Of a stretch of DNA of 64,000 bases, positions 6,930-63,815 are shown one piece after another. Numbering within the stretch: the first letter of the stretch is position 1; every line of letters starts with the position of its first letter. The stretch covers positions 79,939 to 143,938 of the forward strand of contig JABSOS010000004.1 in assembly GCA_013216135.1 (NCBI GenBank), written 5' to 3'. Origin of the DNA: Candidatus Caenarcanales bacterium (GTDB taxonomy: Bacteria > Cyanobacteriota > Vampirovibrionia > LMEP-6097). The position numbers and the translations under genes are program-made. A model generated the notes under the pieces. It did no database searches, was not told where the DNA came from, and saw only the letters and a program-made list of their open reading frames with translations.

Positions 6930-6964
6930 ATAGTAAATTTTAAATCATGAATTTGAGAGAGTTG

Positions 6965-10357: not shown

Positions 10358-10402
10358 TCCTATTTTGACTTAATTGAAAAAATATACTTCAATATTCGTA
10401 AT

Positions 10403-10942: not shown

Positions 10943-11071
10943 CTTTTGTTTAATCAAACTCTTTTCCAGCTACTAGTAAAAATATTGAACAATTTAATTG
11001 AAAAATATGGTTCTAAGTATTGTGCTCGAAACCTTTATATTTTATAATCTGCCTATTAAGATCGTGGAACA

Positions 11072-11893: not shown

Positions 11894-11969
11894 TGATTTA
11901 TGTTGAACTTTTAATCAACCGTAAGTAATTACGTCTTGAATTACTTTCTAATGCTATTTTAATATATTA

Positions 11970-14900: not shown

Positions 14901-15788
14901 ATAGTTCAGTCATCAATTAATTTTTTGTCTGACACTTTAGACACCTATAAATATAGGAAGGGAACATTGGGAACTGCAAGTGTCATAAATAATGAGCTTG
15001 TTTACTTACCTTTCAATAAAGCTCGAAAGAAGCAAATTCAAAAATTTGAGAAAAGGTTACTTGAATCAATTAAGTTTCTCAATAAGGATCTCAACAGGAT
15101 TGATTCATTATCAAAAGCTTCAAAGTCTTCTGTTCCTTCTGAACAGAGAATACCACCAGAACTCTGTGATGGAGCGATTATGGCTAAGAAAAATAAATTG
15201 CCAATTATGACAGATGACTATGTTTACCTTCACTGGAACGCTCTTGAGACAAACTTAGAACCACCTCAATATTTTTCATCTATAGCTTTTTTAGAGTATT
15301 TGTATGAGCAAAAAATAATAAATTTTGAAGAATACTTGGATTGCTTTTATTATTTCTCTTCATATAGATTTAGGTTTATGAGTATCAATAAACAGATTTT
15401 GTATAAAACTATATTTGGTGATGATCTTATAGTGTTGGTTAATCCAGGTAACATAAGGAAACTTAACCTTCATTTGATTTTATCAAGAGACTATGGTGTT
15501 TCACTTCAAAATTGTTTTAGATTAATTGGTGAGTTTGTTTATGATTTAGTAAAAAACAAATCAATAATATTTAGTGTACTGAATGATGTTTTAATCAGTT
15601 TATTAAATTATCTACCACTTGAATATAAATCCATCTTGTCTTATAAAATGATTGTTGACTATTGTACAAAGAGATACGAAGCTGAAAAAAAAGAAAGAAC
15701 AATTATTGACTTGAAAAATGACTTTCTAGAGAAGAGGTTAAGTCAATTACAAGATGTGTGTGGTTTAACCACTCTCTTGAAATTTTAG
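11970..15788 (+). CDS. 1272-aa protein: N-terminal Mrr-like PD-(D/E)xK nuclease motif + long alpha-helical/TPR-like repeat region; no Walker A
   Basis: YGNKGDGGNDGF ... YFQSYAPLKV resembles the Mrr_cat GxDGGxDG signature. The rest is predicted helical repeats. No GxxxxGK[ST]. Confidence 0.6.
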   Translation: MFSDSYFLELQFENRVYSLNSYEFQKFFEDIMLKKFPGHFQRVRPYGNKGDGGNDGFMKEDGKYFQSYAPLKVNEDKEKEAIQKFRDDFQKLLSSEWGNFSKIKEYYFVYNDKFYGTTIEFEKELHVYQEGYPQIKFYLLGTDQLKSIFKELSEDDYKSLNFNTDKSASHLIVEAYLNNIENQIKLNNVHIAENALDLLDQILNSEELKKNSQYIDLYIKNSVMKYKYFLLKERFQNAIDTLEKLTARYPERCEPLLHLADYYCSQDEINLASSLYEKATTKINFGDYWLNKYVPIYIKIKSNLSFVEDDFVLLRSLNDNQRACFYRLFSMYYLNKDIEKSLEYIDKAIEFDPKNLSFILTKLNIYKAQLVNNYSEKLYRLEFVDNMEKVIIYIDESFSFISVRSKLLLQMNKLCILWCQEKIQSCILLLEGISELLVECDFNKGIDSVICELLTSVVTPDLFEVILDYCLDNKSKQFSDLLLKLIFNHALRDQKLKQQAQVFFESISANQGSKYIKLMSFINSGDEEEFIKIVSADTNFLLMLAETLKINPEFRKKIIFHLRDSNNEYSNILYTIFLFDIGEDKEAFEYLKKIDLRNITVPQYDPLLRVALKNEAWDLAEIIIVQIIDKEENDKYRYFLNTQLLNCYVHLGKHLEATKVGKALLKSEQFNSSDTEKILELLLYSYLKLSQHSNRYKNEVKEIYYSYREYNFSLNFLLNIASFVHAYLGTGDDLVSLIVRSISKLNKNPNPLEYAQIFTVLTLKNQVKIDIESSKKTVTEDSFVKIIEDDDWYYIGNGNCLCAIPLQETQTKYHQLFNASLGDKNIEKIFDLRQFLYYKAREIFNKQIEKDNLDNMKKFNLLDSSGNIDINRFKDTIAELQNSESTFFDKYSENTYPLAMLALFEGGLIPSIAKIQRENKGYIHSSDGSINEIERQSSLIKELIKAKSELYIDTTSILFLSEVGIFNHFINLFSKYKIVQSSINFLSDTLDTYKYRKGTLGTASVINNELVYLPFNKARKKQIQKFEKRLLESIKFLNKDLNRIDSLSKASKSSVPSEQRIPPELCDGAIMAKKNKLPIMTDDYVYLHWNALETNLEPPQYFSSIAFLEYLYEQKIINFEEYLDCFYYFSSYRFRFMSINKQILYKTIFGDDLIVLVNPGNIRKLNLHLILSRDYGVSLQNCFRLIGEFVYDLVKNKSIIFSVLNDVLISLLNYLPLEYKSILSYKMIVDYCTKRYEAEKKERTIIDLKNDFLEKRLSQLQDVCGLTTLLKF

Positions 15789-15812
15789 ACTTAAACTAGA
15801 TATGAATAACGT

Positions 15813-15838
15813 AATTATTATCCCTAAGGATAGAAAAG
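15813..15838. repeat. Palindrome-family copy P4, hybrid arms (aattattatccc TAA ggatagaaaag)
   Basis: Same hybrid architecture as P3. Confidence 0.6.
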
Positions 15839-16010
15839 AAAGTATTTATTTTATGGGCTAAATACCAATTCTAAGATTTAGTCATCGTTTTCAATGAAGA
15901 TGTATATCTAAATTTTCTTAAGCTTTGCTTTCTAATACACATAAAAATATAATCTATTTATGGTCTATGTAGTAAATTCTCAGTCTGTAGATAAATTAAA
16001 CTTATAAGTT

Positions 16011-16517
16011 ATGAGATCAGTCTTATTTATAATTCTCACATTATTTGTTTTTGCTGGAGGTTATTATGCTGGTAAAAATTCCAAGAATCTAGAATTTACT
16101 GATTCAAAGCCAGAGCTTTTTGTTAAAGCTGAAACAAAGATGGAAAGTTATCAAAACACCTATCTAAAACCTCTAAGGGTAATTGATGGTGACACCATAG
16201 AATTTGAAATAGTTAATCTCCCATATCCAGAAATCTCTATTCTAAAGCTTAGAATCTTCGGAGTTGATACTCCTGAAAAGTCATGGCGTACAAAATGTGA
16301 ACAAGAGAAAAATCTAGCAAACCTAGCTTCATCTTTTACAGAAGACTTATTTAATAAAGCAGATCATAAAGAGATAAAGCTTATGAAGTGGGGTAAATAC
16401 GGTGGTAGGGTTTTAGGTGATATTTATTTAGATGGTAAATCTTTAAAAGAAGAGCTTTTAAGTAAAGGGTTAGCTAAAGAATACTTTGGTAAGGAAAAGG
16501 TATCTTGGTGTGAATAA
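16011..16517 (+). CDS. Secreted/membrane-anchored thermonuclease (staphylococcal nuclease, SNase family)
   Basis: N-terminal hydrophobic anchor. VIDGDTIEF, RIFGVDTPEK, KYGGRVLGDIY match the SNase Ca-binding and catalytic motifs. Confidence 0.8.
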   Translation: MRSVLFIILTLFVFAGGYYAGKNSKNLEFTDSKPELFVKAETKMESYQNTYLKPLRVIDGDTIEFEIVNLPYPEISILKLRIFGVDTPEKSWRTKCEQEKNLANLASSFTEDLFNKADHKEIKLMKWGKYGGRVLGDIYLDGKSLKEELLSKGLAKEYFGKEKVSWCE

Positions 16518-16519
16518 TG

Positions 16520-16545
16520 AATTTCTATCCCTCGGGATAGAAATT
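16520..16545. repeat. 26-bp perfect palindrome aatttctatccCTCGggatagaaatt (P5)
   Basis: Variant arm type (ttctatcc). Starts 3 nt after the nuclease stop. Confidence 0.8.
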
Positions 16546-16827
16546 AAGGTGCTATAAAAACCAAAATAAGTTAAAATTTCTTTGGGGTATATAGCACTAT
16601 ACCTCGGGGCTTCAAAACCTCTCAATCAGCAGTCGATAGAGATATACGACTGTTTAAATACGATATCTCCTGGCTAAAAGCTTCCTCTTTAGCCGGGAGA
16701 CTCTATTATGTCCAAAGCCTTTTGGCTTAAAAATAGAGTGGTCGTCTGATTGCGATTTTTGAACTCCCGGCTATATATTATTTATTTAATACATAGCTAA
16801 TCTAACAAAAAATAAAGGGAGATTAGT

Positions 16828-17994
16828 GTGCAAAACTCAGATAAGCAAGAGAATATCTTATATAAACTAGCGAAGCTCGCTTCAGGACCAAATATATTAC
16901 TAGTATCTAGTGTCTACTACTACATAGCTTTTAAATATTTAAGCTATTTTGAAGAGAGCGATGCTTTTAGAATTCTCACTTGTCTAATTTTAATCAGTAT
17001 CGCAACCATGATTTATGAGGCAGCGACAAATAAAGATCCTAAAGTTGTCTGTAATAGATTCGCCTGGTCTAATTTAGAAAAAACACTTGCTTATGCATTA
17101 ATTATCTGGGCTTTGTTTTGGGGATATGGGTTTATAGATAGAGTAATAAATCCAACTGAAAAAATTCCAGTCGAGATTAAAGAAGAAGAGCAAAGTAATG
17201 ATACTCAGAACTCAGTAAAACAAGAAGAGGATAAAATCGAAGAAAAACAGTGGGACTCTAATGAGCCTGTTAGTTTTGAAAACTTACTTGCAGAAAATAC
17301 AGAAGAAGGTGTTTTAGTTACCGGGGAAACAAATTTACCTGATGGAGCAATTTTAAGAGTAGGTCTAGAATTAAAATCTAACTGGAAAATTAGTACTCAT
17401 AATTCTGTAAAAATTGAAGATGGGAAATTTGAGGCTTTGCTTTGTTCATACCAGCCTTGTAGGTCTGGTCTATATATAGTTTCGGTATTACTCCCTATGC
17501 AACATGATGCAGAAATCGTTGAGATTCTAGGTAGGCTAAATAAAAAAATTAGGGGAGATTTAGTCAAAGGTAATGATGGTGATCTAAAAACTGCGAAGAA
17601 AGAATTTGATTTCCAGCTTAATAACTCAGCAGAGGATACTAAGCTGAAAGCAAAAAGACAGCTTGCAAGTGACTTATTAAATAAATATCAAAACTTATAT
17701 AATGAATTGATCTCTTTTAAAAATCAACCTAGCTTTCATAGACTTGGCTTTAGTCAAGGTTCTACCTATGCTAGTTGGAAAGCAAGAGTCGGAGAATTAG
17801 AACAAGAATTTAGAGATTCTGATATTTTTGTGCCTGGGAAAAAACCTATTATTGTTCAGCCAAGTACCTTAAAGGTTTTAGGTAATTCCTATATGAGAAG
17901 TCGGGGGCAAGAAACTTCGAATACTCTTCATAATCGTCACTTGTTTGAAGAACTCTTCGACGATAAGGGGAATATACTAAATCAGTTTTACTAA
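16828..17994 (+). CDS. Membrane-anchored hypothetical protein (2-3 N-terminal TM, large soluble C-terminal domain)
   Basis: 388-aa ORF. No family recognised. Confidence 0.5.
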   Translation: MQNSDKQENILYKLAKLASGPNILLVSSVYYYIAFKYLSYFEESDAFRILTCLILISIATMIYEAATNKDPKVVCNRFAWSNLEKTLAYALIIWALFWGYGFIDRVINPTEKIPVEIKEEEQSNDTQNSVKQEEDKIEEKQWDSNEPVSFENLLAENTEEGVLVTGETNLPDGAILRVGLELKSNWKISTHNSVKIEDGKFEALLCSYQPCRSGLYIVSVLLPMQHDAEIVEILGRLNKKIRGDLVKGNDGDLKTAKKEFDFQLNNSAEDTKLKAKRQLASDLLNKYQNLYNELISFKNQPSFHRLGFSQGSTYASWKARVGELEQEFRDSDIFVPGKKPIIVQPSTLKVLGNSYMRSRGQETSNTLHNRHLFEELFDDKGNILNQFY

Positions 17995-18113
17995 GATTTT
18001 GAAATACTCCGTCAGTTTAGCTATGGAGAAACTCCGTATTTATGATTTTCATTCGCGAGTGAAAGCAGAAAATAGCAAATCTCTATGCCACCTTGTATTA
18101 AGTAGTAGTGATT

Positions 18114-18139
18114 AATTATTATCCTGCGGGATAATAATT
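18114..18139. repeat. 26-bp perfect palindrome identical to P1 (P6)
   Basis: aattattatcctgcgggataataatt. Confidence 0.8.
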
Positions 18140-18578
18140 AGAAGTAAGGAAGTAAATAAAAAACTAATTATAAAAAGAGCATTTTAGAAGTTTATAAAAG
18201 ATGTACTAAAGCTTAATACCCTTATAAATACTCAAGTTCTGTGAATAGTCAATTGCTAATTTTGTTTTTAGTAGGTTGCAAAGCTGCTTGCAGAAGGATA
18301 TTTAAAAATAATGATTACGGTTAGATTAATTTTTTTTAACCTTTCTGCTGGTAAAATTTCTGAAAGTCTTATCAGTTTTGAGATCTGAATGAAGATTACT
18401 TTCAGTGAAAATTCACTTATTATTGATTTATTTTTCGTTCTTTTGGATAGTGGCTCTAGGACTTGGATATGAATATTTGCATTTTTTAGATTTTTAAAAA
18501 TAAATAAATATTCAAATGCTGAATTGGGTTTTACTAACATTTTTTTCTGTCTTATATCGAAGAGATAAATTAATTTTG

Positions 18579-18604
18579 ATTTATTATCCCGCGGGATAAT
18601 AAAT
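18579..18604. repeat. 26-bp perfect palindrome atttattatcccGCgggataataaat (P7)
   Basis: 12-nt perfect arms; lies 89 bp upstream of the tyrosine recombinase gene. Confidence 0.8.
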
Positions 18605-18692
18605 ACTCACCCCGAAAATTTTTTAAGAGCTGTCTCAAATTTGAGTTATTATCAAAAACACTCGGATTTGAAGAAATCCAAAGGAGCTGAAT

Positions 18693-43393: not shown

Positions 43394-44475
43394 AATCATT
43401 AAATAAGTTAGTTATTGTTTTTTTAATAGTATTGAGTTCACTATTTATCTATGCTGTAAACGCCAAGAAGGTAAAAAGAAATCGTAATTTATCTGGTCGA
43501 AAAATTACTGATCTTAGTAGATTTAATTTTAAGGAAGGTCTGGAGATCCTAGATTTAGGAAGAAATAGGATTGTAGATTTATCTACTTTGGTTTTGCCTA
43601 GTACTTTAAAGGAACTATACCTCGACAATAATCCAATTTCTAACTTATCTCAATTAAATTTAAATCAAGGTCTAGAAACCTTATTTTTAGTTCGTAATGA
43701 AATTTCAAATGTTTCTAATTTAACTTTACCTGAATCTCTTGAAAGTCTAACCTTAGATTCAAACCAAATTTCCTCAATTGATGATTTGATTTTAAATGAG
43801 AATCTAAAAGAACTTAGTATCAGTAGAAACAACATAACCGACCTCTCAAACGTAACTTTTCCTTCGAGTCTCCGTAACTTAGAATTCGGCAACGCCGAAT
43901 TCACCAACACCGAAAATTATAACTTCAACGAAGGCTTAGAGCGCTTACTTATCAGTGGTACAAATATTAGCTCTATTGATGATATGCAATTCCCAAGTTC
44001 ATTAAAACAATTGATTCTGCTTAGCTCACAACTCACAACAATAAATGGAGAAAATCTCCCAGCGACACTAGAAGAAATAAATTTTAATAACAATTTCTTC
44101 AATGAATTCGAAAACGCCAAATTTCCTTCAGGTTTAAAAAAACTCAGCTTAGAATTCAATAACATCGACGGCGACAATTTCGCGGACTTAGTCTTACCAG
44201 AAGGACTTGAAGAATTAAGCCTATCACGCAATCTTTTATTTAACCCTAAAGCCTCAAACTCCCCATTCCAATTTCCAGACGCTTTAGAAAATTTAAGCTT
44301 ACCTGATTCGATTAAAGTCTTAGACTTAAGTGACAACTCACTAAACAATTTAGACAATCTTGATGTCCCTACTTCACTTGAAGTTTTGAAATTGAAGAAA
44401 AATTTCTTTTCTAGAAAAGAAAAACGAAGAGTTAGAAAAAGATTTAAAGCCCTAGGAGTTAAAGTTCGGATTTAG
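43390..44475 (+). CDS. Leucine-rich repeat (LRR) protein with signal peptide
   Basis: Tandem 22-aa LxxLxLxxNxIxxLxxL repeats (LKELYLDNNPISNLSQLNL, LETLFLVRNEISNVSNLTL, ...). Confidence 0.7.
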   Translation: MKSLNKLVIVFLIVLSSLFIYAVNAKKVKRNRNLSGRKITDLSRFNFKEGLEILDLGRNRIVDLSTLVLPSTLKELYLDNNPISNLSQLNLNQGLETLFLVRNEISNVSNLTLPESLESLTLDSNQISSIDDLILNENLKELSISRNNITDLSNVTFPSSLRNLEFGNAEFTNTENYNFNEGLERLLISGTNISSIDDMQFPSSLKQLILLSSQLTTINGENLPATLEEINFNNNFFNEFENAKFPSGLKKLSLEFNNIDGDNFADLVLPEGLEELSLSRNLLFNPKASNSPFQFPDALENLSLPDSIKVLDLSDNSLNNLDNLDVPTSLEVLKLKKNFFSRKEKRRVRKRFKALGVKVRI

Positions 44476-44869
44476 CTTTATACCAGGACCTAAACATCCA
44501 TAAAATTAAAAGCAGCTGCACAAAAACTCTAGCTATAAAGAAAACCACAGGCTGATCAGTAATCAGATCTAATTTATAAGCATCAACATAAACTTTGTAA
44601 TCAAGTAACATCTCAATATGAACTGAAAGAAAAACTGTGACTAAAAATGTCATAGCTAAAGCAGCAATCTTTCTAAAACTTTCAAATAAAAACAAAGCCC
44701 CTAATATGATTTCAGCGATACCTGTGAGATAAACTAATAATACTTTCATCGGGAAAATCGCTGGCACAACTGAAGCTAAGAGGTCAGTGTAGAAAAAGTG
44801 AGATAAACCAGCGAACATAAAAAATACGCCAGTATAGGTTACATCTAAGTTCTTAAAAAACTTTTCCAT
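44459..44869 (-). CDS. DoxX-family-like small membrane protein
   Basis: 136 aa, 4 TM, GVFFMFAGLSHFF. Confidence 0.45.
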   Translation of the reverse strand: MEKFFKNLDVTYTGVFFMFAGLSHFFYTDLLASVVPAIFPMKVLLVYLTGIAEIILGALFLFESFRKIAALAMTFLVTVFLSVHIEMLLDYKVYVDAYKLDLITDQPVVFFIARVFVQLLLILWMFRSWYKAKSEL

Positions 44870-44958
44870 CTCTTTTTAATATACCTTTGTAAATCTACTA
44901 ATATCATGGCTATGCTCTAAAACGCTGTTTCCTGTTCCATATAAGCATTTTGTTGATT

Positions 44959-45621
44959 TTAGATTACACTAAAACTTTTAACCTTAACTTTTAATTCTTT
45001 TGCAAAGTGACACAGGTACTTATCGGAGATAGCTTCAATTTGATATTTTTCTAAATAGTTTTCTTCAATACTCTCTAAATTTACCTTTTTTAGTTTCCAT
45101 GGAGAATGCTCAAGCTTTCCTTGAAAAACTTTTCCATGTTTACTTTCTAAATATGAATATCTCTCAGTGAGCCATTTACTTAAGTCACTATGATCTTCAG
45201 TTTTATGGTCTACATTAAATTTAGCGTTAAACCTTACTTGATAATCTCTGTCATCGTACCTGATGCATTCGATGGACTTTGTCGGCTGATAGTCTATATT
45301 TGCTTTAAGATAGTTTAATTTGAAAAATAATCTTGCTACTTCTATATGCAGACTTTTATTTGCATCTAAGCTAAAAAAATAGACAGCTTTTTGTCCTTTG
45401 TAGCGAACGTAAGTTCTCAGGTTAAACTCAAGTATCGAAGAGAAATAAGGGATAAGAGGTAGATCTAAGACTTTAATGTCTTTCATCTTAAATGGTACAA
45501 AACTTATATAAGCTTTACCATCTAAGAGATCAAGCTCAAGTGGAGCAGGAATGATTTTCATTAAACTCTGCGGATCTACCTCTTGATGAATGAAAATCAA
45601 ATTTGACCATGTTTGCTGCAT
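44959..45621 (-). CDS. DUF2071-family protein
   Basis: WSNLIFIHQEVDPQSLMKIIPAPLELDLLDGKAYISFVPFKM ... LRTYVRY ... VYFFSLDA matches the DUF2071 pattern. Confidence 0.5.
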   Translation of the reverse strand: MQQTWSNLIFIHQEVDPQSLMKIIPAPLELDLLDGKAYISFVPFKMKDIKVLDLPLIPYFSSILEFNLRTYVRYKGQKAVYFFSLDANKSLHIEVARLFFKLNYLKANIDYQPTKSIECIRYDDRDYQVRFNAKFNVDHKTEDHSDLSKWLTERYSYLESKHGKVFQGKLEHSPWKLKKVNLESIEENYLEKYQIEAISDKYLCHFAKELKVKVKSFSVI

Positions 45622-45623
45622 AA

Positions 45624-45926
45624 CTAATCTTGCACTTGTTTCGTATCAGTTTCTGATACAGAATTTGCCACTGGACAAGTTTCCATAGTTGCGGTAATTC
45701 CATGGAAACTTAAAATACCAGGGCAAACTTTTGTGAAACTTAAAGTGTTATACATTAGCCCTAAAAAGAGAATGGTAAATATTGAAAGAGCCATGAAATT
45801 TTCTCTTTTTAGGGAGCTAACTTTTACTACATTTGCCTCTAAGTCACGGGTATCAGCTTTTAATATCGAATAGACAAATGCGATTAGTAATGAAACTGAA
45901 ACTAGTATAGTTAAAGTTGTTACCAT
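45624..45926 (-). CDS. Small membrane protein
   Basis: 100-aa ORF with 2 TM. Confidence 0.35.
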   Translation of the reverse strand: MVTTLTILVSVSLLIAFVYSILKADTRDLEANVVKVSSLKRENFMALSIFTILFLGLMYNTLSFTKVCPGILSFHGITATMETCPVANSVSETDTKQVQD

Positions 45927-45972: not shown

Positions 45973-46896
45973 CTAAGTGAGGAATTGTGTCTTCAAATGC
46001 CAAAGTCTGACAAAAATCACGTGTGGAATGGTAAGTCCAGCAAGGCTGATGAACACTACTTTAAAGATTTGTAAATTGATATTTTCAATACTTAAACCAT
46101 TTATGTAAAGAAATATTAGGAACATAAAAATAACTGACACTATAGTTCCTATTAAAAGCTTAGTGAAAAACTTTTCTGGTACATCACCTTTTTCGAAAAA
46201 ATCTAAGATATGTTTCGGTGAATGAAGAAAACAAAAATAAATAATAAAACCTATAAGTGGCTCACAGTAGAGCATCGCGAGTGTGACTAGTAGGATCTCA
46301 ACAGCTTTGTTGATTTTACCTCTAAATGAATAGTAGTTAAGGAGAAGGAATGAGAAAAATATTATTAAGTAACTGAGACTATTAAGTATGTTTACTAGAT
46401 TTGTCGCTGTAGCCTGGTTACTAAGTATCGAAAAAAGATTTATTAAAGTCTCTCTATGAAATACACTCGTTAATGAAATTAGAGCTGTGCCGTAAAAAGA
46501 AAATTCGATTAGATATCTGGCTAATTCTAAGCATGATGAATTTTTTGGAGCTCTAGCATCGCTTTCTCCCCAGTGATAGACTGATGTTAATAGGAAAAAG
46601 CTTAATGCAAAGGAAGGCACTCCTAGCCAAATGAGGGCTAGGAGTGCTGCAAGGACTAAATATGATAATCCAAACCTATTGCTGGATTTGAAGAAGTTTG
46701 CGATTAATTTATTTGATTTGATTAATTCAAAATCAAACGTTCCATGTGGTATTCCAAAAATCGATACAGAAATGGCTGTTAAGATTATTTGGACATATAG
46801 GTTGGATAATAATTCAGTCCTTGAAAGGGATATAGTAATTATCGTTGATAAGATGAAAAACCAACGATGATAAGATCTAAATCTCTTTAGCATCAC
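45973..46896 (-). CDS. blh: Brp/Blh-family beta-carotene 15,15'-dioxygenase (retinal synthesis)
   Basis: 307-aa polytopic membrane protein with several conserved His (IPHGTFD, YHWGESD, FLHSPKH, IPHVIF). Sits immediately downstream of the rhodopsin gene. Confidence 0.7.
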   Translation of the reverse strand: MMLKRFRSYHRWFFILSTIITISLSRTELLSNLYVQIILTAISVSIFGIPHGTFDFELIKSNKLIANFFKSSNRFGLSYLVLAALLALIWLGVPSFALSFFLLTSVYHWGESDARAPKNSSCLELARYLIEFSFYGTALISLTSVFHRETLINLFSILSNQATATNLVNILNSLSYLIIFFSFLLLNYYSFRGKINKAVEILLVTLAMLYCEPLIGFIIYFCFLHSPKHILDFFEKGDVPEKFFTKLLIGTIVSVIFMFLIFLYINGLSIENINLQIFKVVFISLAGLTIPHVIFVRLWHLKTQFLT

Positions 46897-47662
46897 TTGC
46901 TGCTTTTACAGCGAGTACTGCGACTAATCCAAATCCAACCTTGTTGATTAAGTCTGCAATATTATAGATTAATTCTCTAAGAACAATCGTTAACTGAGCT
47001 GCTTCTCCACCTGAACTTGTCAGACTTAAGAAATAGCCGATTGGGTATATAGCCCAACCTATGAAAATGAAGGTTCTCATGCTGAGTAAGCCTTCACCAA
47101 TTGATTTCGGTGCTGCTTTAGCACTTTCAGTTACTTCAGTGAATAGAACGCCTAAAATATAGACCCATGCGAGCATACTTATTAAAAATGCTACCCATCC
47201 AGTTTGCGTTGCAGCTCCTGCACTGTTGATAGATGTCTCACCGACATAACCAGCAACAATCATCACGATATCTGCTAATACTAAATTTTTGAGTAGTTGA
47301 CGTCCCTTTTCTTTTCCTAATCTAAGTAAAGCTGGGAATTTAACAAGTAATAACGGTGTAGTTACTAACCAATCTATATATCTAATTTCAGTAGGGAAGG
47401 TTAGTAGTGTATCAATGGAACCGTCAGTTCCTACGTAGTGTTTCATTGCTTGATAGTGAATAGCTGCAACAAATGTTACTAATGCAGCAACTGTTGCAGT
47501 GGATCTATATTTCTCTGGAAGCGAATTTCGCTCTACTAAGAAATATAGTGTACCTGCAGCCATGCCTACAAAGCCTACCCAGAACATGTATTGGGTAGCT
47601 AGTACTAGTGTATCCATGATTAAATACCTCCATTTATAGCTTGCCACGATTGATACAAACAA
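46877..47662 (-). CDS. Proteorhodopsin-family microbial rhodopsin, D-T-K motif (Lys at proton-donor position, Leu at tuning position)
   Basis: Helix C RYIDWLVTTPLLLVKF versus PR RYIDWLLTVPLLICEF. Helix G Schiff-base Lys in IYNIADLINKVGFGL. IGWAIYPIGYF. His in AAIHYQAM. The true start may be the internal MDTLVL ATG at about 47617. Confidence 0.85.
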   Translation of the reverse strand: MFVSIVASYKWRYLIMDTLVLATQYMFWVGFVGMAAGTLYFLVERNSLPEKYRSTATVAALVTFVAAIHYQAMKHYVGTDGSIDTLLTFPTEIRYIDWLVTTPLLLVKFPALLRLGKEKGRQLLKNLVLADIVMIVAGYVGETSINSAGAATQTGWVAFLISMLAWVYILGVLFTEVTESAKAAPKSIGEGLLSMRTFIFIGWAIYPIGYFLSLTSSGGEAAQLTIVLRELIYNIADLINKVGFGLVAVLAVKAASDAKEI

Positions 47663-47753
47663 TACCGGGCCTTTGCACTCACTTAAATATTCCTGTTGTT
47701 AATTTCGTTTTTTGGTTAAAAATATTTAATCTTCACTAGGCTTTGATTTGTTT

Positions 47754-48794
47754 CTAGTAACTATCCTTCGTGATTTTCACTTTGCCTCTAAACACATAAT
47801 AGATACAGCTTGTATACGCTAAAACTAGTGGCACACCTATAAGAGCTATGTTTAGCATGATTGCAAGAGTTTTCTGCGAGGATGATGAATTATATATATC
47901 CATAGTCCACTCTGGATTATTTGTACAATGAATTATTTCTGGAAATAGCCCTATGCCTACAAGCGAGGTTAAAGCTGCAATTGCAAAGCAGGATGATAGA
48001 AAAGCTCTGAATTCTCTTCCGTGATATATCTCTCTTGGAATATTTGCTATAGCAAGGATTCCAGAGAACGGTAATAGTAGCCATATGACATTTTCTTTGA
48101 AATGTTCATTAATATGAGGGACGTAGAGAAGAGTTATTACTGATACGAAAATGAAACTTAATGCAAAGAAAACCATGGAATAATGAAACCATTTCCTAGC
48201 TTTGTTTTGAAGTTTGCCCTCGTTCTTTAAGACTAAATAAATTGAACCATGCATCATAAAAAGTGCAAGAGTAAGTATCCCGGTACTGATGGAATATGGA
48301 TTTATTAAATCTGTAAAACCCATGGATAGTATCTTTGTTTTTGAAAATTGTACTCCCCAGATTATATTTCCCATTGAAATTCCTATTAGTAAAGCTGAGC
48401 TGATACTAGAGACGCTAAAACTAATATCCCAAAACTCTCTTGCCCAAGCTGCTTTGAATTTAGATCTAAATTCAATTGCAACTGCTCTAAAAATTAAGCT
48501 GAGTAAAAGAAGCATAAAGGCTGTATAGAAGCCAGAAAAGACTGATGCGTAAATTTCAGGGAAAGCGGCAAATGTAGCTCCCCCTCCGGTTACTAACCAA
48601 ACTTCGTTTCCATCCCATACTGGACCTATTGAATTTATCATTAACCTACGTTCGTGATCTGTCTTCGAAAAGAGGTGTAAGGCGCCTACTCCTAAGTCAA
48701 AGCCATCAAGAATGACATAACCTGTGAAAAGTGAGCCTACAATAATAAACCAAGTCAGGTTTAAATTTAAATTGTTCATGAAAAAATCTATCAT
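47754..48794 (-). CDS. cydB: Cytochrome bd ubiquinol oxidase subunit II
   Basis: N-terminus MIDFF..WFIIVGSLFTGYVILDGFDLGVGALHLF is typical of CydB. Immediately downstream of cydA. Confidence 0.8.
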   Translation of the reverse strand: MIDFFMNNLNLNLTWFIIVGSLFTGYVILDGFDLGVGALHLFSKTDHERRLMINSIGPVWDGNEVWLVTGGGATFAAFPEIYASVFSGFYTAFMLLLLSLIFRAVAIEFRSKFKAAWAREFWDISFSVSSISSALLIGISMGNIIWGVQFSKTKILSMGFTDLINPYSISTGILTLALFMMHGSIYLVLKNEGKLQNKARKWFHYSMVFFALSFIFVSVITLLYVPHINEHFKENVIWLLLPFSGILAIANIPREIYHGREFRAFLSSCFAIAALTSLVGIGLFPEIIHCTNNPEWTMDIYNSSSSQKTLAIMLNIALIGVPLVLAYTSCIYYVFRGKVKITKDSY

Positions 48795-50141
48795 TTAAAT
48801 TTTCTCCTTTAGGCTCTCTAAACTTTCAGGACCTGCTTTTATTTTTCTATTGAGAAGGAAAATAAACAAGAAAAATAACAAAATGTAAACTAGTGCAAAC
48901 ATAATTAGTGATGATAAAACCATATTCGACGTGACAGCTTCTGAAATTCCATCACTTGTTTTTAATAAGCCGTATACTATCCATGGTTGTCTACCTACTT
49001 CTGCTGTATACCAACCAACTTGATTTGCGATCTGTGGACCGAGTACAGAACTTATAAGTAAAGCGAGTAATATTTTATTGGTAAATAAAAAACCTTTAAA
49101 CCAAGCAAAGCAACTAAATACCGCAAGTCCAAACAGTCCCATACCTATAGCAACCATGATGTGATAGTACTGGAAAGTTAAATTTATTGGTGGTCTAAGT
49201 TCTTTAGGGAAAGCTTTTATTCCAGTTACTTCTTTATTGAAATCTCCTGAAAGTAAAAAACCAAGCATGCCAGGTATCCCAATCGCGTATGTTTTTTCTT
49301 TTTCTTCATCCACCCAACCTACTAAAGTTAAATCTGCTTTTGCTTTCTCTGGGAAATGACCTTCCATAGCTGCTAATTTTACGGGCTGATACTTACTTAC
49401 ATAGAGAGCACTTTCATGTCCAGAGAGGATTTGAGCGAACGAGCATATTAAAGCTATACACAGAGAAATCTTTAAGGACTTTCTAGCAAATTCTGTATGT
49501 ATTTTTTTGAATAAATAGAAAGCTGAAACACTAATAACTAACCAAGCACCTGCCTGCCAAGCTCCTAGAAGTACGTGAATTAATCTGTCTACTGATGATG
49601 GGTTAAATACCATTTGCCAGAAATCTAATATCTCGGCACGCGCGTTTATTCCTTCACCTACTATGTGATATCCAGTAGGGGTTTGCTGCCATGAATTTGC
49701 AACAACAATCCAGATTGCGCTAAATATTGAACCTAGTGCTACCATGCAGGTGGAAAAAAAATGTATCTCTTTACTTACTTTATCCCAGCCGAATAATAAA
49801 ATCGCTAGAAAGCCTGATTCTAAGAAGAAAGCAAAGACTCCTTCTGAGGCGAGGGCACTGCCAAATATGTCTCCCACGAACCTCGAATAAAATGCCCAGT
49901 TCGTTCCGAACTCAAATTCCATCACAATTCCCGTGGCGACCCCGATGGCAAAAGTTAAGGCAAATATTTTTACCCAGAATCTGGTCATTTGAAAATATAT
50001 AAGATCTTTAGTGCGTAAATATTGTGCTTCCATTATTACTAGTACTAGTCCAATACCAATACTGAGTGGTGGGTAAATATAGTGAAAAGCTATAGTTAAA
50101 GCGAACTGTAATCTAGATAAACTAAGAACATCTATGTCCAT
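48795..50141 (-). CDS. cydA: Cytochrome bd ubiquinol oxidase subunit I
   Basis: [25 protein letters not shown]-terminus and the Q-loop region KLAAMEGHF. Confidence 0.85.
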
Positions 50142-50266: not shown

Positions 50267-52114
50267 ATGTTACTCACTGGAGCAAGACCAAAAGCAAGAG
50301 CAATGAAAAATAAACCTCTTCCTGATGAGCTTATGTTCGATAGTTCTGGTACAGCTTTATTAACAGCTATCGAATATCTTCTCGCTAGACCTCAGTATGA
50401 AAAAGATTTTGATGATGATTTTTCTGAGAATGAGATAAATCTTAACCGTGCCTTAGCAGCTACAGCCTCTTTATTAAAATCGAAGGATTATTCAGAAGCT
50501 ACGGTAAAAAAACTAATCGAGGATAACAGCTTAAATGCTTTAATCCAAAATCTATTAATTAAAGGAATAGACGATTCTATAAACTCAGGTGACCATAATG
50601 GTTCTGTTGATATGATGAAGGCTTACTTTAGACTTAGCCTTGATTTCTATAGTATGGGCTTTGAAGACTTTTTAAAGCTTGGAGATAGTTTGTTTAAGAC
50701 TTATACTGGCACCAGTAAAGAGCATAAGAGAATTATACAGGCTATAGTTAAATCTAGAAGTATAGCTCCTGATTTTGAAAAGGATTATGAGGAAAGACAA
50801 ACAGCTGGCTTTGGTACAGCAAGGGTTTTCCAAAAAGGTATAGTGAAAGCTATGAGAGGCTTACTTAATTACACTACTGATAAAAAGTTTCTCGCCACTA
50901 AAATTTTAATTCTAGGAGCAGGTCCAGCAGGGATGTTGACAGCAAGAACCCTTGCTGAAGTTGGTTTTACAAACATTCAGATACTGGATGAAAGTGGAAA
51001 GTTTAATGGTGTCTGGAAAATGAATTCTTTAAGTAAAGGTACTATTAATAATCCTTTTAATATTAACTTCCTTGGGATTAGGCTTCCAGCCTCCACCGGT
51101 CAGCAAGGTTCAGGAGCTAAACTTATTAATTTTTTAGAGCAAGTTGTAAATGGTAAGAAAGATATAAATGGTGAAAGAATAAAAAACTATTTTTGGTCTC
51201 TAATGCCTGAGCTTATTAAAGCGAAGATTAAAACTGTTAAAGCTGGAAACCTAGAACATGAAGTGCAGTATTTAGACGAAAATTTAGAGCTGAAATCTGT
51301 TGAAGCACCTATAGTTATTAACGCTTTAGGCTTAGGGCAACCGCTGGATCTCTGTGCCAAAGATGCTCCTATGAAAACATCTACACCTAAATTATCTGGT
51401 TCTAGATGGCAGATTCAAATCTCAGATAAGCAAGCTGAAAATTTAAATGATAAACATTTGACTTTAATCGGGCTTGGGAATAGTACTATCGAAATGCTGA
51501 TGCAAATTCATGAGTGTAACAGTAAGGGCTGCAATATTAAATATAAAGTTCTTACTCATTATCCAGAAGCAAGTGTGCAAAATCCTGATCAATACATTGA
51601 ATATGAAGGAAGAGAGTATCGAGTTTTTAGAGATTTGAAAAAGTCAAACTTAGTTGATTTAGAGGGAGATATAGCTCCAGCTAGAGAAGCTTATATGAAA
51701 GCATTAGAGGATAATAATATAATCTCAGATGTAGTTGAGTGGAAGCGAAGTCTGGAAGGTAAAGTAACTTTTGTGAAGTTAAGAAATGGAAATGCTATTG
51801 AAGTTCCAACTGATAAACAGCTTACCTTAACCGGTTATAAGCCGAGTAAAGAACTTTACCAGCAGATGAATATTCATCTAGATAGTGATAGCTGTCCATT
51901 ATATGACTATGATGGTGAAATCCAAAGGCTTGAAAATGAACAAGAAAATGACGGTAGAACTTATAAAGGTTACTCATTAATCGGTGCTGTTAGAGCAAAT
52001 AATCATGAGCCAAATGCACTTGTTATTCCAGGAATTATGGATTCTTTGCCTAAGCTAGTTTTTAACACCATTTTAAGAACCATAGATTTTAGCTATTCCG
52101 CAAAAAACAAGTAG
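50267..52114 (+). CDS. Hypothetical protein with FAD/NAD(P)-binding Rossmann domain (flavin-dependent oxidoreductase/monooxygenase-like)
   Basis: 615 aa. KILILGAGPAGMLTARTL ... ILDESGKFNGVW dinucleotide-binding motif in the middle. Confidence 0.5.
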   Translation: MLLTGARPKARAMKNKPLPDELMFDSSGTALLTAIEYLLARPQYEKDFDDDFSENEINLNRALAATASLLKSKDYSEATVKKLIEDNSLNALIQNLLIKGIDDSINSGDHNGSVDMMKAYFRLSLDFYSMGFEDFLKLGDSLFKTYTGTSKEHKRIIQAIVKSRSIAPDFEKDYEERQTAGFGTARVFQKGIVKAMRGLLNYTTDKKFLATKILILGAGPAGMLTARTLAEVGFTNIQILDESGKFNGVWKMNSLSKGTINNPFNINFLGIRLPASTGQQGSGAKLINFLEQVVNGKKDINGERIKNYFWSLMPELIKAKIKTVKAGNLEHEVQYLDENLELKSVEAPIVINALGLGQPLDLCAKDAPMKTSTPKLSGSRWQIQISDKQAENLNDKHLTLIGLGNSTIEMLMQIHECNSKGCNIKYKVLTHYPEASVQNPDQYIEYEGREYRVFRDLKKSNLVDLEGDIAPAREAYMKALEDNNIISDVVEWKRSLEGKVTFVKLRNGNAIEVPTDKQLTLTGYKPSKELYQQMNIHLDSDSCPLYDYDGEIQRLENEQENDGRTYKGYSLIGAVRANNHEPNALVIPGIMDSLPKLVFNTILRTIDFSYSAKNK

Positions 52115-61214: not shown

Positions 61215-63815
61215 ATGAAAATAGGTGATGAGTTAAAATTCATAAAATCATTAATTAAATCTTCCAGAAAAAAAGAGAACAAGCAAAATAATGGAGTTGC
61301 TAATAGTGGTGTTAAAAAAAATAGTCCGAGTTTAAGTTATAGAATTACACGATATCTTGGTATGACTGTAGCGATGCCATCACTGATCTTAGCGAATTTC
61401 CCACCTGAGCTTTTTGGTTATGGGCAAAATACAGGCTTAGATTATGGTGAACCTCAAATTAGCTCCAGGAAAGCTCTAAAACCAGAATGTCCTGATTTTC
61501 TTCACTTAAGTATTGATAACTATATTACTGATGATTTAAGAAATATCAGAGATAATTATTTTTATAAAGCGGATATTCCAGCTCATATGGAATACCAAGA
61601 TGTTTTAAATACTTATAATGAATCTCAGCTTAAAGAACTAAGGGGGAAATCTTCAGACCGAGAACTGAATTTTGTTTATAGCTTAATGCATTTTTTCTCT
61701 GAATCATATACTAGTGGTGTTAAGCATATAGGTTCACAAAAAAAGACTATTTTTATACCTAAAGATATAGAGCCACTTTTAAAGATCAAAGAATCATTAA
61801 TTAAAAACAGTTCTAAGAAGATAGACTCTCCTATTATCGACCCTATATGGATTGTTATGAACAAAGACAGGCTTCTTCATGACTCTGAAGATAGTGAGAT
61901 GAAGTTTTGTGATTTGATGAGAAAAGCGTACCCTGAAATAGATTTAAAGGAATTTCGGGATGAATATTTTATTAAAGCTTCTAATATCCTTGAATTAGAG
62001 CCTCTAGATATTTTAAGAATAAATCCAAGTTTAAAGGCAGAGCTTGATGAATTAAATTTAAAAATTGATAGTAAAGAAGTTCGTCAGATTATTATGCTTA
62101 TGGAGCTGTTTTCACAAAGCTATCTCGATGAGAGTACGAACCTTGATGAAAAAGAAGCTAAGGTACTTTTTGTGCCTAAAAATTTAAAAGATTTATTAAA
62201 CGCTACAGATGAATTAAGTAAGTTCCCTCAGGCAATTAACAGTCCTAAAGGACTTAAGACTCCTTTAGCTGATGTTTATTGGCTTGCGAAAAATAGGGAC
62301 GATGTTTTTAATGGTTTAGATGAACTTGAAATGAAAAAAGCAATAGAAATTTTCTTCGAGATTAATAGTCCAAATATTAACTATGCTCCGATGTTTCAAC
62401 CGAGCTTTAACTCTCGAGAGAATAATGCTGAAGCTGCAAAGCTTCTTGTGAAAAAGTATCCAGGTTTAAGTTCTAAAGAAATATCAAGTAAGTTTGAACT
62501 AAAAGAAATCTTTAATGAAGATATTGTCCTGCATATAAATGCACCTGAAATTATTTATGGAGACGGAGTGATCTTTTCAACTAGACCTGGTCTTAGCTTA
62601 AATTTTTACAATAAGGGAGATTTGAAGAGTCCATCATTTTATTGGACGCCTGAAAATAATTACCCGATGCCTCCCCTTCTTTTCCAAAATCAGACTCTAC
62701 AGTTAACTGGGCATCATATTCTTGATAATTTCAGTGATGATGTGGATCGATATGTTATTTATGTCGTGCACAACGATAGTGATGAAGATGCCACTGTGAA
62801 GATAATAAAAAGAGCTGATCAAGGTGGTGAGGAAACTTCTTTTCAAGATCTTGAAGGACCAGATGTGAGAGATACTATTAATGAATCATTTAATTCTGGT
62901 CCTGGAAGTGCTGTCTCAGAAGAGTTTTTAGATCCATCTTATGCTGAGGAAAATAATTGGGGTGAAGAGATTTCTGTTCCAGCAAATTCCAGTCAGATAG
63001 TATACCTAAGGCAGCGTAAATTAAATGGAAGTGTCTTAAGTACAAATATGTCTCTTGAGGTTACTGGAGGTCCAGTCAGCTTTTCTATGGGAGTTGTGAC
63101 TAATCCTGTAGATGAGCCTGCTGATAATAAGGTTTTACTTAATTCATTTCTTAATTTAATAGAAGCTAAGAAAGGGGTTGATAGATTTGAATTTACTGGA
63201 CCCATGACGAGTGGACGCGCTACTGGTGCTTACTATACTACTGAAGTTAATAAAAGTGAAACTCTTTTTCTGACTGATATTGATGCTGAACTAAGTACTA
63301 CTATTATTGCTGCAACTGGAGCATATGGTATTGAAGATCCTAAAAATATTAAGCCTGGTGAGTATCGTAATCGAGATCAAAGTGGAGATGTTGTAAGAAC
63401 TAAAGCAGGAAATAATGCTGACTTGGGCATTTATTCAGCAGGTGGAGGAGTTAATCCTAGAAATTTAGGTAATTTTAATACACCTAATAGTGTTACTTAT
63501 AATTTTGAAAATTTATCTCCTGATAATTCAAAGTATCTAGAATTTAGTTTTGCGAGTATAGCTGTTGGGGATCACTTATCAAAATCTTTTCGAGGTAATT
63601 TACATTTTGAATTTATCGATTCGAAGGGGAACCTTGTTCCTGACCTGTATAAGAAAGTATATGTTGGGATTTCACCGCAAGAGTCTGTTCCAATTCTTCA
63701 AATAGATAAACAGCTTTTGATTGAAAATGATATCAAAGAATTTAGAGTTTTATTGTCTAATACTGGTGACTCGACTCCACCTTTTGCTTTGAGAGTATCC
63801 CAAAAGAGTAAGTAG
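61215..63815 (+). CDS. Large hypothetical protein (866 aa)
   Basis: Long ORF. No family recognised. Confidence 0.5.
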   Translation: MKIGDELKFIKSLIKSSRKKENKQNNGVANSGVKKNSPSLSYRITRYLGMTVAMPSLILANFPPELFGYGQNTGLDYGEPQISSRKALKPECPDFLHLSIDNYITDDLRNIRDNYFYKADIPAHMEYQDVLNTYNESQLKELRGKSSDRELNFVYSLMHFFSESYTSGVKHIGSQKKTIFIPKDIEPLLKIKESLIKNSSKKIDSPIIDPIWIVMNKDRLLHDSEDSEMKFCDLMRKAYPEIDLKEFRDEYFIKASNILELEPLDILRINPSLKAELDELNLKIDSKEVRQIIMLMELFSQSYLDESTNLDEKEAKVLFVPKNLKDLLNATDELSKFPQAINSPKGLKTPLADVYWLAKNRDDVFNGLDELEMKKAIEIFFEINSPNINYAPMFQPSFNSRENNAEAAKLLVKKYPGLSSKEISSKFELKEIFNEDIVLHINAPEIIYGDGVIFSTRPGLSLNFYNKGDLKSPSFYWTPENNYPMPPLLFQNQTLQLTGHHILDNFSDDVDRYVIYVVHNDSDEDATVKIIKRADQGGEETSFQDLEGPDVRDTINESFNSGPGSAVSEEFLDPSYAEENNWGEEISVPANSSQIVYLRQRKLNGSVLSTNMSLEVTGGPVSFSMGVVTNPVDEPADNKVLLNSFLNLIEAKKGVDRFEFTGPMTSGRATGAYYTTEVNKSETLFLTDIDAELSTTIIAATGAYGIEDPKNIKPGEYRNRDQSGDVVRTKAGNNADLGIYSAGGGVNPRNLGNFNTPNSVTYNFENLSPDNSKYLEFSFASIAVGDHLSKSFRGNLHFEFIDSKGNLVPDLYKKVYVGISPQESVPILQIDKQLLIENDIKEFRVLLSNTGDSTPPFALRVSQKSK

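What the first reader, a model, noticed from the sequence alone, without database searches (positions are those of the whole stretch)
45973..47662. Proteorhodopsin with Lys at the proton-donor position (D-T-K motif), adjacent to blh
Seen: helix C reads RYIDWLVTTPLLLVKF. Aligned to green proteorhodopsin (RYIDWLLTVPLLICEF), this gives Asp acceptor, Thr, and Lys in place of Glu108. Leu sits at the spectral-tuning position 105. The Schiff-base Lys is present in helix G. A Brp/Blh dioxygenase gene follows immediately. Established: most PRs are DTE; Lys as proton donor is known from the Exiguobacterium ESR type. Inference: a functional retinal-producing unit with an ESR-like DTK pump that is likely green-tuned. 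No crt genes are in the window.
Basis: partly seen in the sequence, partly recalled or inferred. Interest (0 to 1): 0.5.

Follow-up and report, generated by a model that had tools for sequence, protein, structure and literature searches.

The report
ESR-type rhodopsin in a melainabacterium
A marine relative of cyanobacteria that cannot photosynthesise carries an intact light-driven proton pump of the known Exiguobacterium (lysine-donor) type, followed directly by the enzyme that makes its retinal cofactor; the pump type is ordinary, and the host is the mildly interesting part.

Summary
Window 46877-47617 (-) encodes a 246-aa microbial rhodopsin. Helix C is RYIDWLVTTPLLLVKF, which gives D82/T86/K93 (DTK), Leu90 at the tuning site and the Schiff-base Lys226. 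A Brp/Blh dioxygenase gene (45973-46893, -) overlaps its 3' end by 17 nt. No crt gene lies in the 64-kb window.

It is not a variant proteorhodopsin. It belongs to the recognised "DTK pump"/ESR clade: 66% identical to Exiguobacterium sibiricum rhodopsin (PDB 4HYJ, E 3e-92), with every ESR functional residue that I mapped conserved. The AlphaFold model superposes on 4HYJ at TM 0.90. Of the 120 best database homologues, 105 are DTK.

The host is the new element. The exact proteins are GenBank NQY79060.1/NQY79059.1 from a "Candidatus Caenarcaniphilales bacterium" MAG (Vampirovibrionia/Melainabacteria). Two other such MAGs share the synteny. The gene's GC3 matches the host, and dN/dS is 0.02. In a neighbour-joining tree the clade is sister to the Bacillales ESRs, not nested in them.

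The β-carotene source is unresolved. More distant relatives carry crtI/B/Y beside the rhodopsin; this lineage has only the rhodopsin-blh pair.

Verdict: new member of a known kind, already deposited and machine-annotated. No paper in the searched library discusses it. Interest is modest.

The parts
46877..47617 (-). Rhodopsin gene, 246 aa, ESR/DTK-pump clade. Residues: H54, R79, D82 (acceptor), T86, L90 (tuning), K93 (donor position; codon 47339-47341), E127, E215, D222, K226 (Schiff base; codon 46940-46942). Identical to GenBank NQY79060.1.
47627..47631 (-). GGAGG ribosome-binding site 9 nt upstream of the ATG at 47617. It argues against the TTG at 47662 as the start.
   Evidence: homologue N-termini
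47618..47730 (-). About 110 nt upstream of the rhodopsin gene, conserved in the window, L001 and L002. L002 has no cydAB upstream. This is probably the gene's own regulatory or leader region; no promoter could be pinned down.
45973..46893 (-). Brp/Blh β-carotene 15,15'-dioxygenase, 306 aa from the ATG (a GTG at 46896 is also possible). It overlaps the rhodopsin 3' end by 17-20 nt. Five His are invariant across 10 homologues (H50, H107, H224, H228, H291). Identical to NQY79059.1.
47754..50141 (-). cydA (48795-50141) and cydB (47754-48794), the cytochrome bd oxidase, directly upstream on the same strand. Present in L001, absent at this position in L002. Context only, not shown to be part of the unit.
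44459..45926 (-). Three same-strand downstream genes syntenic in L001 and L002: a 100-aa membrane ORF (45624-45926), DUF2071 (44959-45621) and a DoxX/MauE-like protein (44459-44869). They are absent next to the rhodopsin-blh pair of the 76%-identical relative P0397, so they are probably not functionally tied to it.

Best explanation
The two genes form a retinal-phototrophy cassette in a marine, particle-associated Caenarcaniphilales bacterium. This order belongs to Vampirovibrionia/Melainabacteria, the non-photosynthetic sister class of oxygenic cyanobacteria.

The opsin binds all-trans-retinal at K226 and should work like Exiguobacterium sibiricum rhodopsin. After green-light (about 530 nm) isomerisation, the Schiff-base proton goes to D82, which is paired with H54. 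The Schiff base is then reprotonated from the cytoplasm through K93, a lysine that is neutral in the dark and transiently picks up a proton. The proton leaves late in the photocycle by the H54...E215 route. The net effect is outward H+ pumping that adds to the proton-motive force.

Blh, probably translationally coupled to the opsin through the 17-nt overlap, cleaves β-carotene with O2 into two retinals.

Shown here: family membership, conservation of all mapped ESR residues, fold, intact Blh, purifying selection, host-like codon composition, host identity.

Inferred: pumping, colour, and the Lys-mediated mechanism, all by homology to ESR. Also inferred is the β-carotene source. I judge crt genes elsewhere in the 3-Mb genome somewhat more likely (about 60:40) than uptake from prey or particles.
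For: - Family: 4HYJ E 3.4e-92, helix C identical. Identity 66% over 237 aa, and 15 of 15 mapped ESR residues conserved, including H57, R82, D85, T89, K96, E130, E214, D221 and K225. At 30 positions defined on bacteriorhodopsin (retinal pocket plus proton-path residues), 26 are the same as in ESR.
- Fold: AF2 model pLDDT 93.3, and 4HYJ_A is the top structural match with TM 0.90/0.93 and rmsd 1.7 A.
- Clade: DTK in 105 of the 120 nearest homologues. In a neighbour-joining tree the window clade is sister to the Bacillales ESR clade.
- ESR properties from the literature: Lys96-dependent pump, active at pH 4.5-8.5, 531 nm (PMC11155677). 'DTK pumps' is a named group (PMC10519204).
- Blh: above the NCBIfam cut-off, with invariant His residues.
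- Selection against L001: rhodopsin dN/dS 0.019, blh 0.058.
- Composition: rhodopsin GC3 0.27, against 0.20-0.31 for the neighbouring genes and about 0.6 in Exiguobacterium rhodopsin genes.
- Host: the exact proteins are NQY79060.1 and NQY79059.1, and MetE is NQY79037.1, all '[Candidatus Caenarcaniphilales bacterium]' on a 358-kb contig. Synteny is shared with two independently binned MAGs.
- No sensory transducer next to the gene: no neighbouring ORF has a HAMP or MCP-signal domain.
Against: - No experiment exists on this protein. Pumping, colour and the role of K93 rest on homology.
- Two residues near the β-ionone ring differ from ESR: S147/M148 against G150/C151. The absorption maximum may therefore be shifted.
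- No β-carotene pathway was found. None lies in the 64-kb window or in about 13 kb beyond it. None turned up among the closest relatives of a neighbouring lineage's CrtI.
- The simple promoter and terminator scan was uninformative, so the operon structure is not established.
- The host assignment rests on MAG binning and the depositors' taxonomy.
Confidence: 0.85

Rival explanations
1. The same pump and Blh, but the organism has no carotenoid pathway. Blh would then cleave β-carotene taken from phototrophic prey, hosts or detritus on sinking particles, so phototrophy depends on a scavenged pigment. This differs from the main reading only in the substrate source.
For: - No crtB/I/Y lies in the 64-kb window or in about 13 kb of extra flank.
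- The 76%-identical relative P0397 also has only the rhodopsin-blh pair within ±10 kb.
- The next lineage out (L003) and the distant DTK clades keep crtI/B/Y beside the rhodopsin. This lineage has therefore lost that linkage.
- The closest 8 clusters of L003-type CrtI contain no member labelled Caenarcaniphilales.
- Caenarcaniphilales on ALOHA particles are described as putatively predatory or parasitic (PMC7848738).
Against: - From general knowledge, a rhodopsin-blh pair with crt genes elsewhere in the genome is a common arrangement in marine bacteria.
- Only about 77 kb of a roughly 3-Mb genome was inspected.
- The CrtI search lists only the top 120 hits and shows names mostly for cluster representatives, so absence from it is weak evidence.
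Confidence: 0.35
2. It is a photosensor rather than an ion pump. JGI's pipeline names close relatives 'sensory rhodopsin'.
For: - JGI labels on P0002 and P0003.
- A sensory group related to PRs and closest to DTK pumps does exist (Proteo-SR; PMC10519204).
Against: - Proteo-SRs replace the helix-C carboxylate acceptor and have Met at the donor position. This protein keeps D82, H54, K93, E215 and D222 exactly as the demonstrated pump ESR does.
- No transducer, HAMP or MCP gene lies nearby.
- The JGI labels are automatic.
Confidence: 0.04
3. The contig is mis-binned or chimeric, and the cassette really belongs to a Firmicute or another known ESR host.
For: The closest cultured homologues are Bacillales. 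L001 and L002 are short contigs of 12 and 4 kb.
Against: - The rhodopsin GC3 of 0.27 equals that of its neighbours, and composition is uniform over 64 kb at about 32% GC. Exiguobacterium rhodopsin genes have GC3 of about 0.6.
- The gene sits on contigs of 0.2-1 Mb in several assemblies.
- Three independent MAG projects give the same taxon.
- A protein with a DUF3370 domain lies in the window; from memory this family is mainly cyanobacterial.
- In the tree the clade is sister to Bacillales, not inside it.
Confidence: 0.03

Closest known systems
Exiguobacterium sibiricum rhodopsin (ESR; PDB 4HYJ) and the 'DTK pumps'
   Same: - 66% identity, with helix C identical.
- DTK motif, the His-Asp counter-ion pair, E130, E214, D221 and K225 all conserved.
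- LRE motif at the start of helix G.
- No signal peptide, and a similar length.
- Predicted fold superposes at TM 0.90.
   Different: - The host is a Gram-negative-type Vampirovibrionia with about 32% GC, not a Bacillales.
- The gene is fused in an overlapping pair with blh. None of the Bacillales loci fetched has blh or crtY within ±10 kb.
- A 4-residue insertion in the F-G loop.
- S147/M148 replace G150/C151 near the ionone ring.
- The helix-C end reads FPALLRLG where ESR has FPLLLGL.
Green-absorbing proteorhodopsin (EBAC31A08; PDB 2L6X/7B03)
   Same: Same superfamily branch. His75-Asp97 equivalent, Thr101, Leu105, Asp227 and Lys231 are conserved. A blh partner gene is typical.
   Different: Only about 34% identity. 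Glu108 is replaced by Lys93. No signal peptide. It falls in a separate clade.
rhodopsin-crtI-crtB-crtY-blh clusters of Acidobacteriota and Burkholderiales DTK rhodopsins (L022-L050), and the L003 lineage
   Same: A DTK (or DTx) rhodopsin linked to blh.
   Different: Those loci carry the whole β-carotene pathway beside the rhodopsin. Here only blh remains adjacent. The blh is only about 30% identical to that of L003, although the two rhodopsins are 73% identical.

Membership tests
ESR / DTK proton-pump clade of microbial rhodopsins | Seven-helix microbial rhodopsin fold | tested here: met
   PF01036 E 6.7e-54. AF2 pLDDT 93.3, with seven long helices (helix C broken at residue 92) plus a short B-C loop helix. 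4HYJ_A TM 0.90/0.93.
ESR / DTK proton-pump clade of microbial rhodopsins | Asp-Thr-Lys at BR positions 85/89/96 | tested here: met
   D82/T86/K93 in alignments to ESR, GPR and BR.
ESR / DTK proton-pump clade of microbial rhodopsins | Schiff-base Lys and second counter-ion Asp in helix G | tested here: met
   K226 and D222.
ESR / DTK proton-pump clade of microbial rhodopsins | His partner of the acceptor Asp (ESR H57), plus E130 and E214 of the release pathway | tested here: met
   H54, E127 and E215 conserved. Their roles are taken from PMC11155677.
ESR / DTK proton-pump clade of microbial rhodopsins | Clade-specific motifs FPLLxG (end of helix C) and LRE (start of helix G), as listed in PMC10519204 | tested here: inconclusive
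   LRE is present (L213-R214-E215). The helix-C end reads FPALLRLG, a variant of FPLLxG.
ESR / DTK proton-pump clade of microbial rhodopsins | Groups phylogenetically with ESR rather than with PR or XR | tested here: met
   Best PDB hit by 180 bits over PR. In the NJ tree the window clade is sister to the Bacillales ESR clade, with GPR as outgroup. This is a distance tree without bootstrap.
ESR / DTK proton-pump clade of microbial rhodopsins | Light-driven outward H+ transport with Lys-dependent Schiff-base reprotonation | not testable with these tools
   Needs expression, pH-electrode measurements and flash photolysis of wild type against K93A.
Proteorhodopsin sensu stricto (DTE) | Glu at the cytoplasmic donor position (E108 of GPR) | tested here: not met
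   K93 aligns with E108 in five PR alignments.
Brp/Blh β-carotene 15,15'-dioxygenase | Match to the family model above the curated cut-off | tested here: met
   TIGR03753 146.8 bits against 95.25. PF15461 145 bits against 28.
Brp/Blh β-carotene 15,15'-dioxygenase | Conserved His residues, including the HxxxH pair. That these are iron ligands is from memory of the Blh literature. | tested here: met
   H50, H107, H224, H228 and H291 are invariant in 10 homologues.
Brp/Blh β-carotene 15,15'-dioxygenase | Availability of β-carotene (crtE/B/I/Y or equivalent in the genome) | tested here: inconclusive
   None in the window or its flanks. The CrtI homologue search was uninformative.
Sensory rhodopsins (including Proteo-SR) | Non-carboxylic acceptor and/or Met or an aromatic residue at the donor position, with a transducer gene adjacent | tested here: not met
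   D82 and K93 are present. No HAMP or MCP gene lies in the neighbourhood. Criteria are from PMC10519204.
Antenna-binding xanthorhodopsin-type pumps | Gly at the helix-E fenestration that admits a carotenoid ring | not tested
   No reliable XR or Kin4B8 sequence alignment was made. XR is only 28-29% identical.

The most novel reading that the evidence does not exclude
Retinal phototrophy is an established, vertically maintained trait of a marine clade of Vampirovibrionia (Melainabacteria), the lineage used as the 'never phototrophic' outgroup in arguments about the origin of cyanobacterial photosynthesis. In this putatively predatory, particle-attached clade the chromophore would be made by Blh from β-carotene stolen from phototrophic prey, because the genome has lost its own crt genes.
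Probability: 0.25. Interest if true: 0.6.

Novelty: new member of a known kind. Interest (0 to 1): 0.3.

Why it matters
Mechanistically it adds little. Lysine-donor (DTK) pumps have been known since ESR, and here they turn out to be widespread in metagenomes.

The value is organismal and ecological. Vampirovibrionia are treated as strictly non-phototrophic relatives of cyanobacteria, and I found no paper in the searched library that links them to rhodopsins. Here a conserved, strongly constrained rhodopsin-blh cassette sits in at least three marine Caenarcaniphilales genomes. It shows that some members harvest light with retinal, and it marks them as sunlit-zone organisms even when recovered from 4,000-m sediment traps.

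It also gives a second, phylogenetically distant natural host background for studying ESR-type pumps, this time with a dedicated retinal enzyme. Finally, it poses a concrete and answerable question: does a putative predator make or steal its β-carotene?

Tried and rejected
- Rfam and tRNA scans of the window found nothing.
- The σ70 promoter and terminator scan of 44.0-50.6 kb gave no more sites than shuffles and none in the cydB-rhodopsin gap, so operon boundaries stay open.
- Literature searches pairing rhodopsin with Caenarcaniphilales, Melainabacteria or Vampirovibrionia, by word start and anywhere in a word, found only incidental co-mentions. The exception is Leu et al. 2022, which reclassified the MAG DT-Caenarcaniphilales-1 as surface-derived using criteria that included photic-zone genes such as proteorhodopsin.
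- A search for statements on carotenoid biosynthesis in these taxa led nowhere.
- I tried to find crt genes of the MAG indirectly, by searching homologues of the L003 CrtI and looking up cluster members. The nearest relatives are unnamed marine contigs (L058-L063) and Bacteroidota. None is labelled Caenarcaniphilales. This is inconclusive.
- The PyrRedox neighbour (50267-52114) was considered as a carotenoid enzyme. It is not CrtI-like: it has only Pyr_redox_2/3 hits and a weak YpdA hit. Rejected.
- The 317-aa Amino_oxidase next to blh in L055 and P0397 is not similar to CrtI.
- A recent transfer from Exiguobacterium was rejected on codon composition and tree position.
- The TTG start at 47662 was rejected in favour of the ATG at 47617.

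Full report
**What is there.** On the minus strand the window carries a compact run of genes:

- cydA (48795-50141) and cydB (47754-48794)
- a 136-nt gap
- a rhodopsin gene (46877-47617)
- blh (45973-46893)
- a 100-aa membrane ORF, DUF2071, and a DoxX-like gene

The listed rhodopsin ORF starts at a TTG (47662). A GGAGG lies 9 nt before the ATG at 47617, and the N-termini of ESR and all close homologues match that ATG. The product is therefore 246 aa. The blh start (ATG 46893 or GTG 46896) lies inside the last codons of the rhodopsin gene. That is an overlap of 17-20 nt and suggests translational coupling.

**Checking the observation.** Helix C is RYIDWLVTTPLLLVKF.

- HMMER alignments to several proteorhodopsin structures put D82, T86, L90 and K93 on GPR D97, T101, L105 and E108.
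- K226 (ADLINKVG) is the Schiff-base lysine, and D222 is the second counter-ion.
- The blh call is solid: PF15461 E 4e-42, and TIGR03753 146.8 bits against a cut-off of 95.25. Five histidines, including an HxxxH pair, are invariant across ten homologues.
- No crt genes are in the window. Pfam scans of all 46 ORFs of at least 150 aa found none, and tblastn with CrtB/I/Y of a relative found none. About 10 kb upstream and 3 kb downstream of the window also hold none.

Every factual statement in the finding is correct.

**What it is.** The protein is an orthologue-level relative of Exiguobacterium sibiricum rhodopsin, not a proteorhodopsin that happens to have Lys.

- 4HYJ scores 311 bits (E 3e-92). 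The best proteorhodopsin scores 128 bits.
- Global identity to ESR is 66%.
- All ESR residues discussed in the mechanistic literature are conserved. ESR H57, R82, D85, W86, T89, L93, K96, E130, E214, D221 and K225 correspond to window H54, R79, D82, W83, T86, L90, K93, E127, E215, D222 and K226.
- At 30 positions defined on bacteriorhodopsin (retinal pocket plus proton-path residues), 26 match ESR. The differences include S147/M148 for ESR G150/C151 near the ionone ring. The BR sequence used to pick the columns is from memory.
- An AlphaFold2 model built with 36 homologues has pLDDT 93.3. Its best PDB match is 4HYJ_A at TM 0.90/0.93 and rmsd 1.7 A.
- Among the 120 best homologues in the 5.8-billion-protein collection, 105 are DTK. 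The rest are mostly DTV, DTM or DTI.

The literature already names this group 'DTK pumps' or the 'ESR branch'. It reports the branch in Firmicutes, Planctomycetes, Verrucomicrobia and Actinobacteria (PMC10519204 and bioRxiv 10.1101/2022.08.01.502354).

**Whose gene it is.**

- The window is about 32% GC throughout.
- A genome-collection scan found the same rhodopsin at 99% identity in 'Candidatus Caenarcanales bacterium ALOHA_ZT_4' (L001) and at 94% in an 'uncultured Candidatus Melainabacteria bacterium' (L002).
- L001 has the same gene order, with neighbouring proteins 85-96% identical. L002 shares it except for cydAB.
- Exact-sequence look-ups show the window's rhodopsin, Blh and MetE are GenBank NQY79060.1, NQY79059.1 and NQY79037.1. 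All are '[Candidatus Caenarcaniphilales bacterium]' on a 358,477-nt contig.
- The same proteins occur on other 0.2-1 Mb contigs and in Logan assemblies SRR7648341 and SRR7648288.

This fits the MAG DT-Caenarcaniphilales-1 of Leu et al. 2022: 3.08 Mb, 33.6% GC, Vampirovibrionia, family LMEP-6097. That MAG was recovered from 4,000-m sediment traps at Station ALOHA and reclassified as surface-derived on criteria that included photic-zone genes such as proteorhodopsin (PMC9426571). The identification with that MAG is my inference. Poff et al. 2021 list Caenarcaniphilales among putatively predatory or parasitic bacteria on sinking particles (PMC7848738).

**Evolutionary context.**

- The rhodopsin's GC3 is 0.27, the same as its neighbours (0.20-0.31). 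Exiguobacterium rhodopsin genes have GC3 of about 0.6. This is not a recent import from Bacillales.
- In a neighbour-joining tree rooted on GPR, one clade holds the window, L001, L002, P0002, L003 and several unnamed metagenomic sequences. It is sister to the Bacillales ESR clade. Acidobacteriota and proteobacterial DTK rhodopsins branch further out. This is a distance tree without support values.
- Against L001 the rhodopsin has dN/dS 0.019 and blh 0.058, so both are under strong purifying selection. The rhodopsin's dS (0.42) is well below that of its neighbours (1.0-2.2). That could reflect codon constraint in a highly expressed gene or recent exchange among relatives.

**The carotenoid question.**

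- Distant DTK loci (Acidobacteriota, Polaromonas and others) carry rhodopsin-crtI-crtB-crtY-blh.
- L003 has a 73%-identical rhodopsin and 32% GC; it is an unclassified 'bacterium' MAG. It carries crtB-crtI about 5 kb upstream and rhodopsin-crtY-blh.
- The window's subclade (window, L001, L002, L055/P0002, P0397) has only the overlapping rhodopsin-blh pair.
- The Bacillales loci fetched have neither blh nor crtY within ±10 kb.

Retinal synthesis here is therefore half documented. The last enzyme is present and constrained, but the substrate source is unknown. I could not reach the rest of the genome. A homologue search with L003's CrtI and a look-up of the nearest clusters found no Caenarcaniphilales-labelled protein, but that test has little power.

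**Mechanism proposed.** By homology to ESR:

1. Green light of about 530 nm isomerises retinal on K226.
2. The Schiff-base proton moves to the D82/H54 pair.
3. K93 is uncharged in its hydrophobic pocket in the dark. It captures a cytoplasmic proton and passes it to the Schiff base.
4. The proton is released late, through the H54-water-E215 path.

The result is outward proton pumping over a broad pH range. Nothing suggests a sensory role: no transducer gene is nearby, and the acceptor and donor residues are those of the pump.

The roughly 110 nt upstream of the rhodopsin gene are conserved in all three genomes, including L002, which lacks cydAB there. The gene therefore probably has its own control region even where it follows cydAB.

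**Novelty and score.** The family, motif and mechanism are known, and the protein is already in GenBank with a generic 'bacteriorhodopsin' label. What is not in the searched literature is any discussion of rhodopsins in Melainabacteria/Vampirovibrionia. The library covers only open-access papers. I class it as a new member of a known kind, with modest interest (0.3). The interest would rise if the clade proves to lack carotenoid synthesis and to rely on prey-derived β-carotene.

Noticed in passing
window 7100-25700: A defence and mobile-element island. It holds a UG17-class defence reverse transcriptase (8188-9594, PADLOC E 1e-106) with its RT-associated SLATT partner (9728-10357). A second RT (20749-22020) follows a weakly SIR2-like gene (19742-20755). 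There are also DUF3800 (23654-24466), two tyrosine integrases (18693-19709 and 24477-25682), and a 1272-aa protein with a weak PIN-TPR-GreABC hit (11970-15788).
   Followed up: partly
window 47754-50141, compared with L002 700-892: cydAB (cytochrome bd oxidase) lies between the PyrRedox gene and the rhodopsin in the window and in L001. It is missing in the closely related Melainabacteria contig L002, where PyrRedox is 151 nt from the rhodopsin gene. This is an insertion/deletion of a terminal oxidase among near relatives, while the rhodopsin's upstream 110 nt stay conserved.
   Followed up: partly
L001 about 4780-4910: L001 has an extra small Cys-rich ORF (MKKGQLPKKICLVCKRPFEWRKKWKACWDEVKYCSNRCRN...) between cydB and the rhodopsin gene. 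The window lacks it. From memory it resembles DUF2256, a family often found near photolyase genes.
   Followed up: no
window 46877-47617, compared with L001: The synonymous divergence of the rhodopsin gene (dS 0.42) is 2.5- to 5-fold lower than that of every neighbouring gene (1.0-2.2). This suggests strong codon constraint or recent recombination of this gene among Caenarcaniphilales.
   Followed up: no
window 50267-52114 (+): A 615-aa FAD/NAD(P)-binding oxidoreductase (Pyr_redox_2/3 only, no specific family) is conserved and divergently oriented next to the rhodopsin region in the window, L001 and L002. Its function is unknown, and it is not CrtI-like.
   Followed up: partly
L003 1834-12779; L058-L063: An unclassified low-GC (32-34%) marine lineage has a 73%-identical DTK rhodopsin and carries crtB-crtI plus rhodopsin-crtY-blh. 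On contigs from what appear to be related organisms (same PAD_porph and Reprolysin neighbours), a CrtI 74-75% identical to L003's sits in a crtI-crtB-crtZ-lycopene cyclase (PF18916) cluster, with a Caroten_synth (PF04240) gene nearby. The L003 CrtI is otherwise closest to Bacteroidota enzymes (about 60% identity).
   Followed up: partly
the contig of P0397 (no DNA held), genes at 6137-9965: In the 76%-identical relative, a photolyase-related protein (DPRP, PF04244) lies two genes upstream of the rhodopsin-blh pair. This is another light-related gene in the neighbourhood.
   Followed up: no
window 61215-63815 (+): An 866-aa protein matches DUF3370 (E 1.6e-9). From memory this family is largely cyanobacterial, which is consistent with the host assignment.
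   Followed up: no
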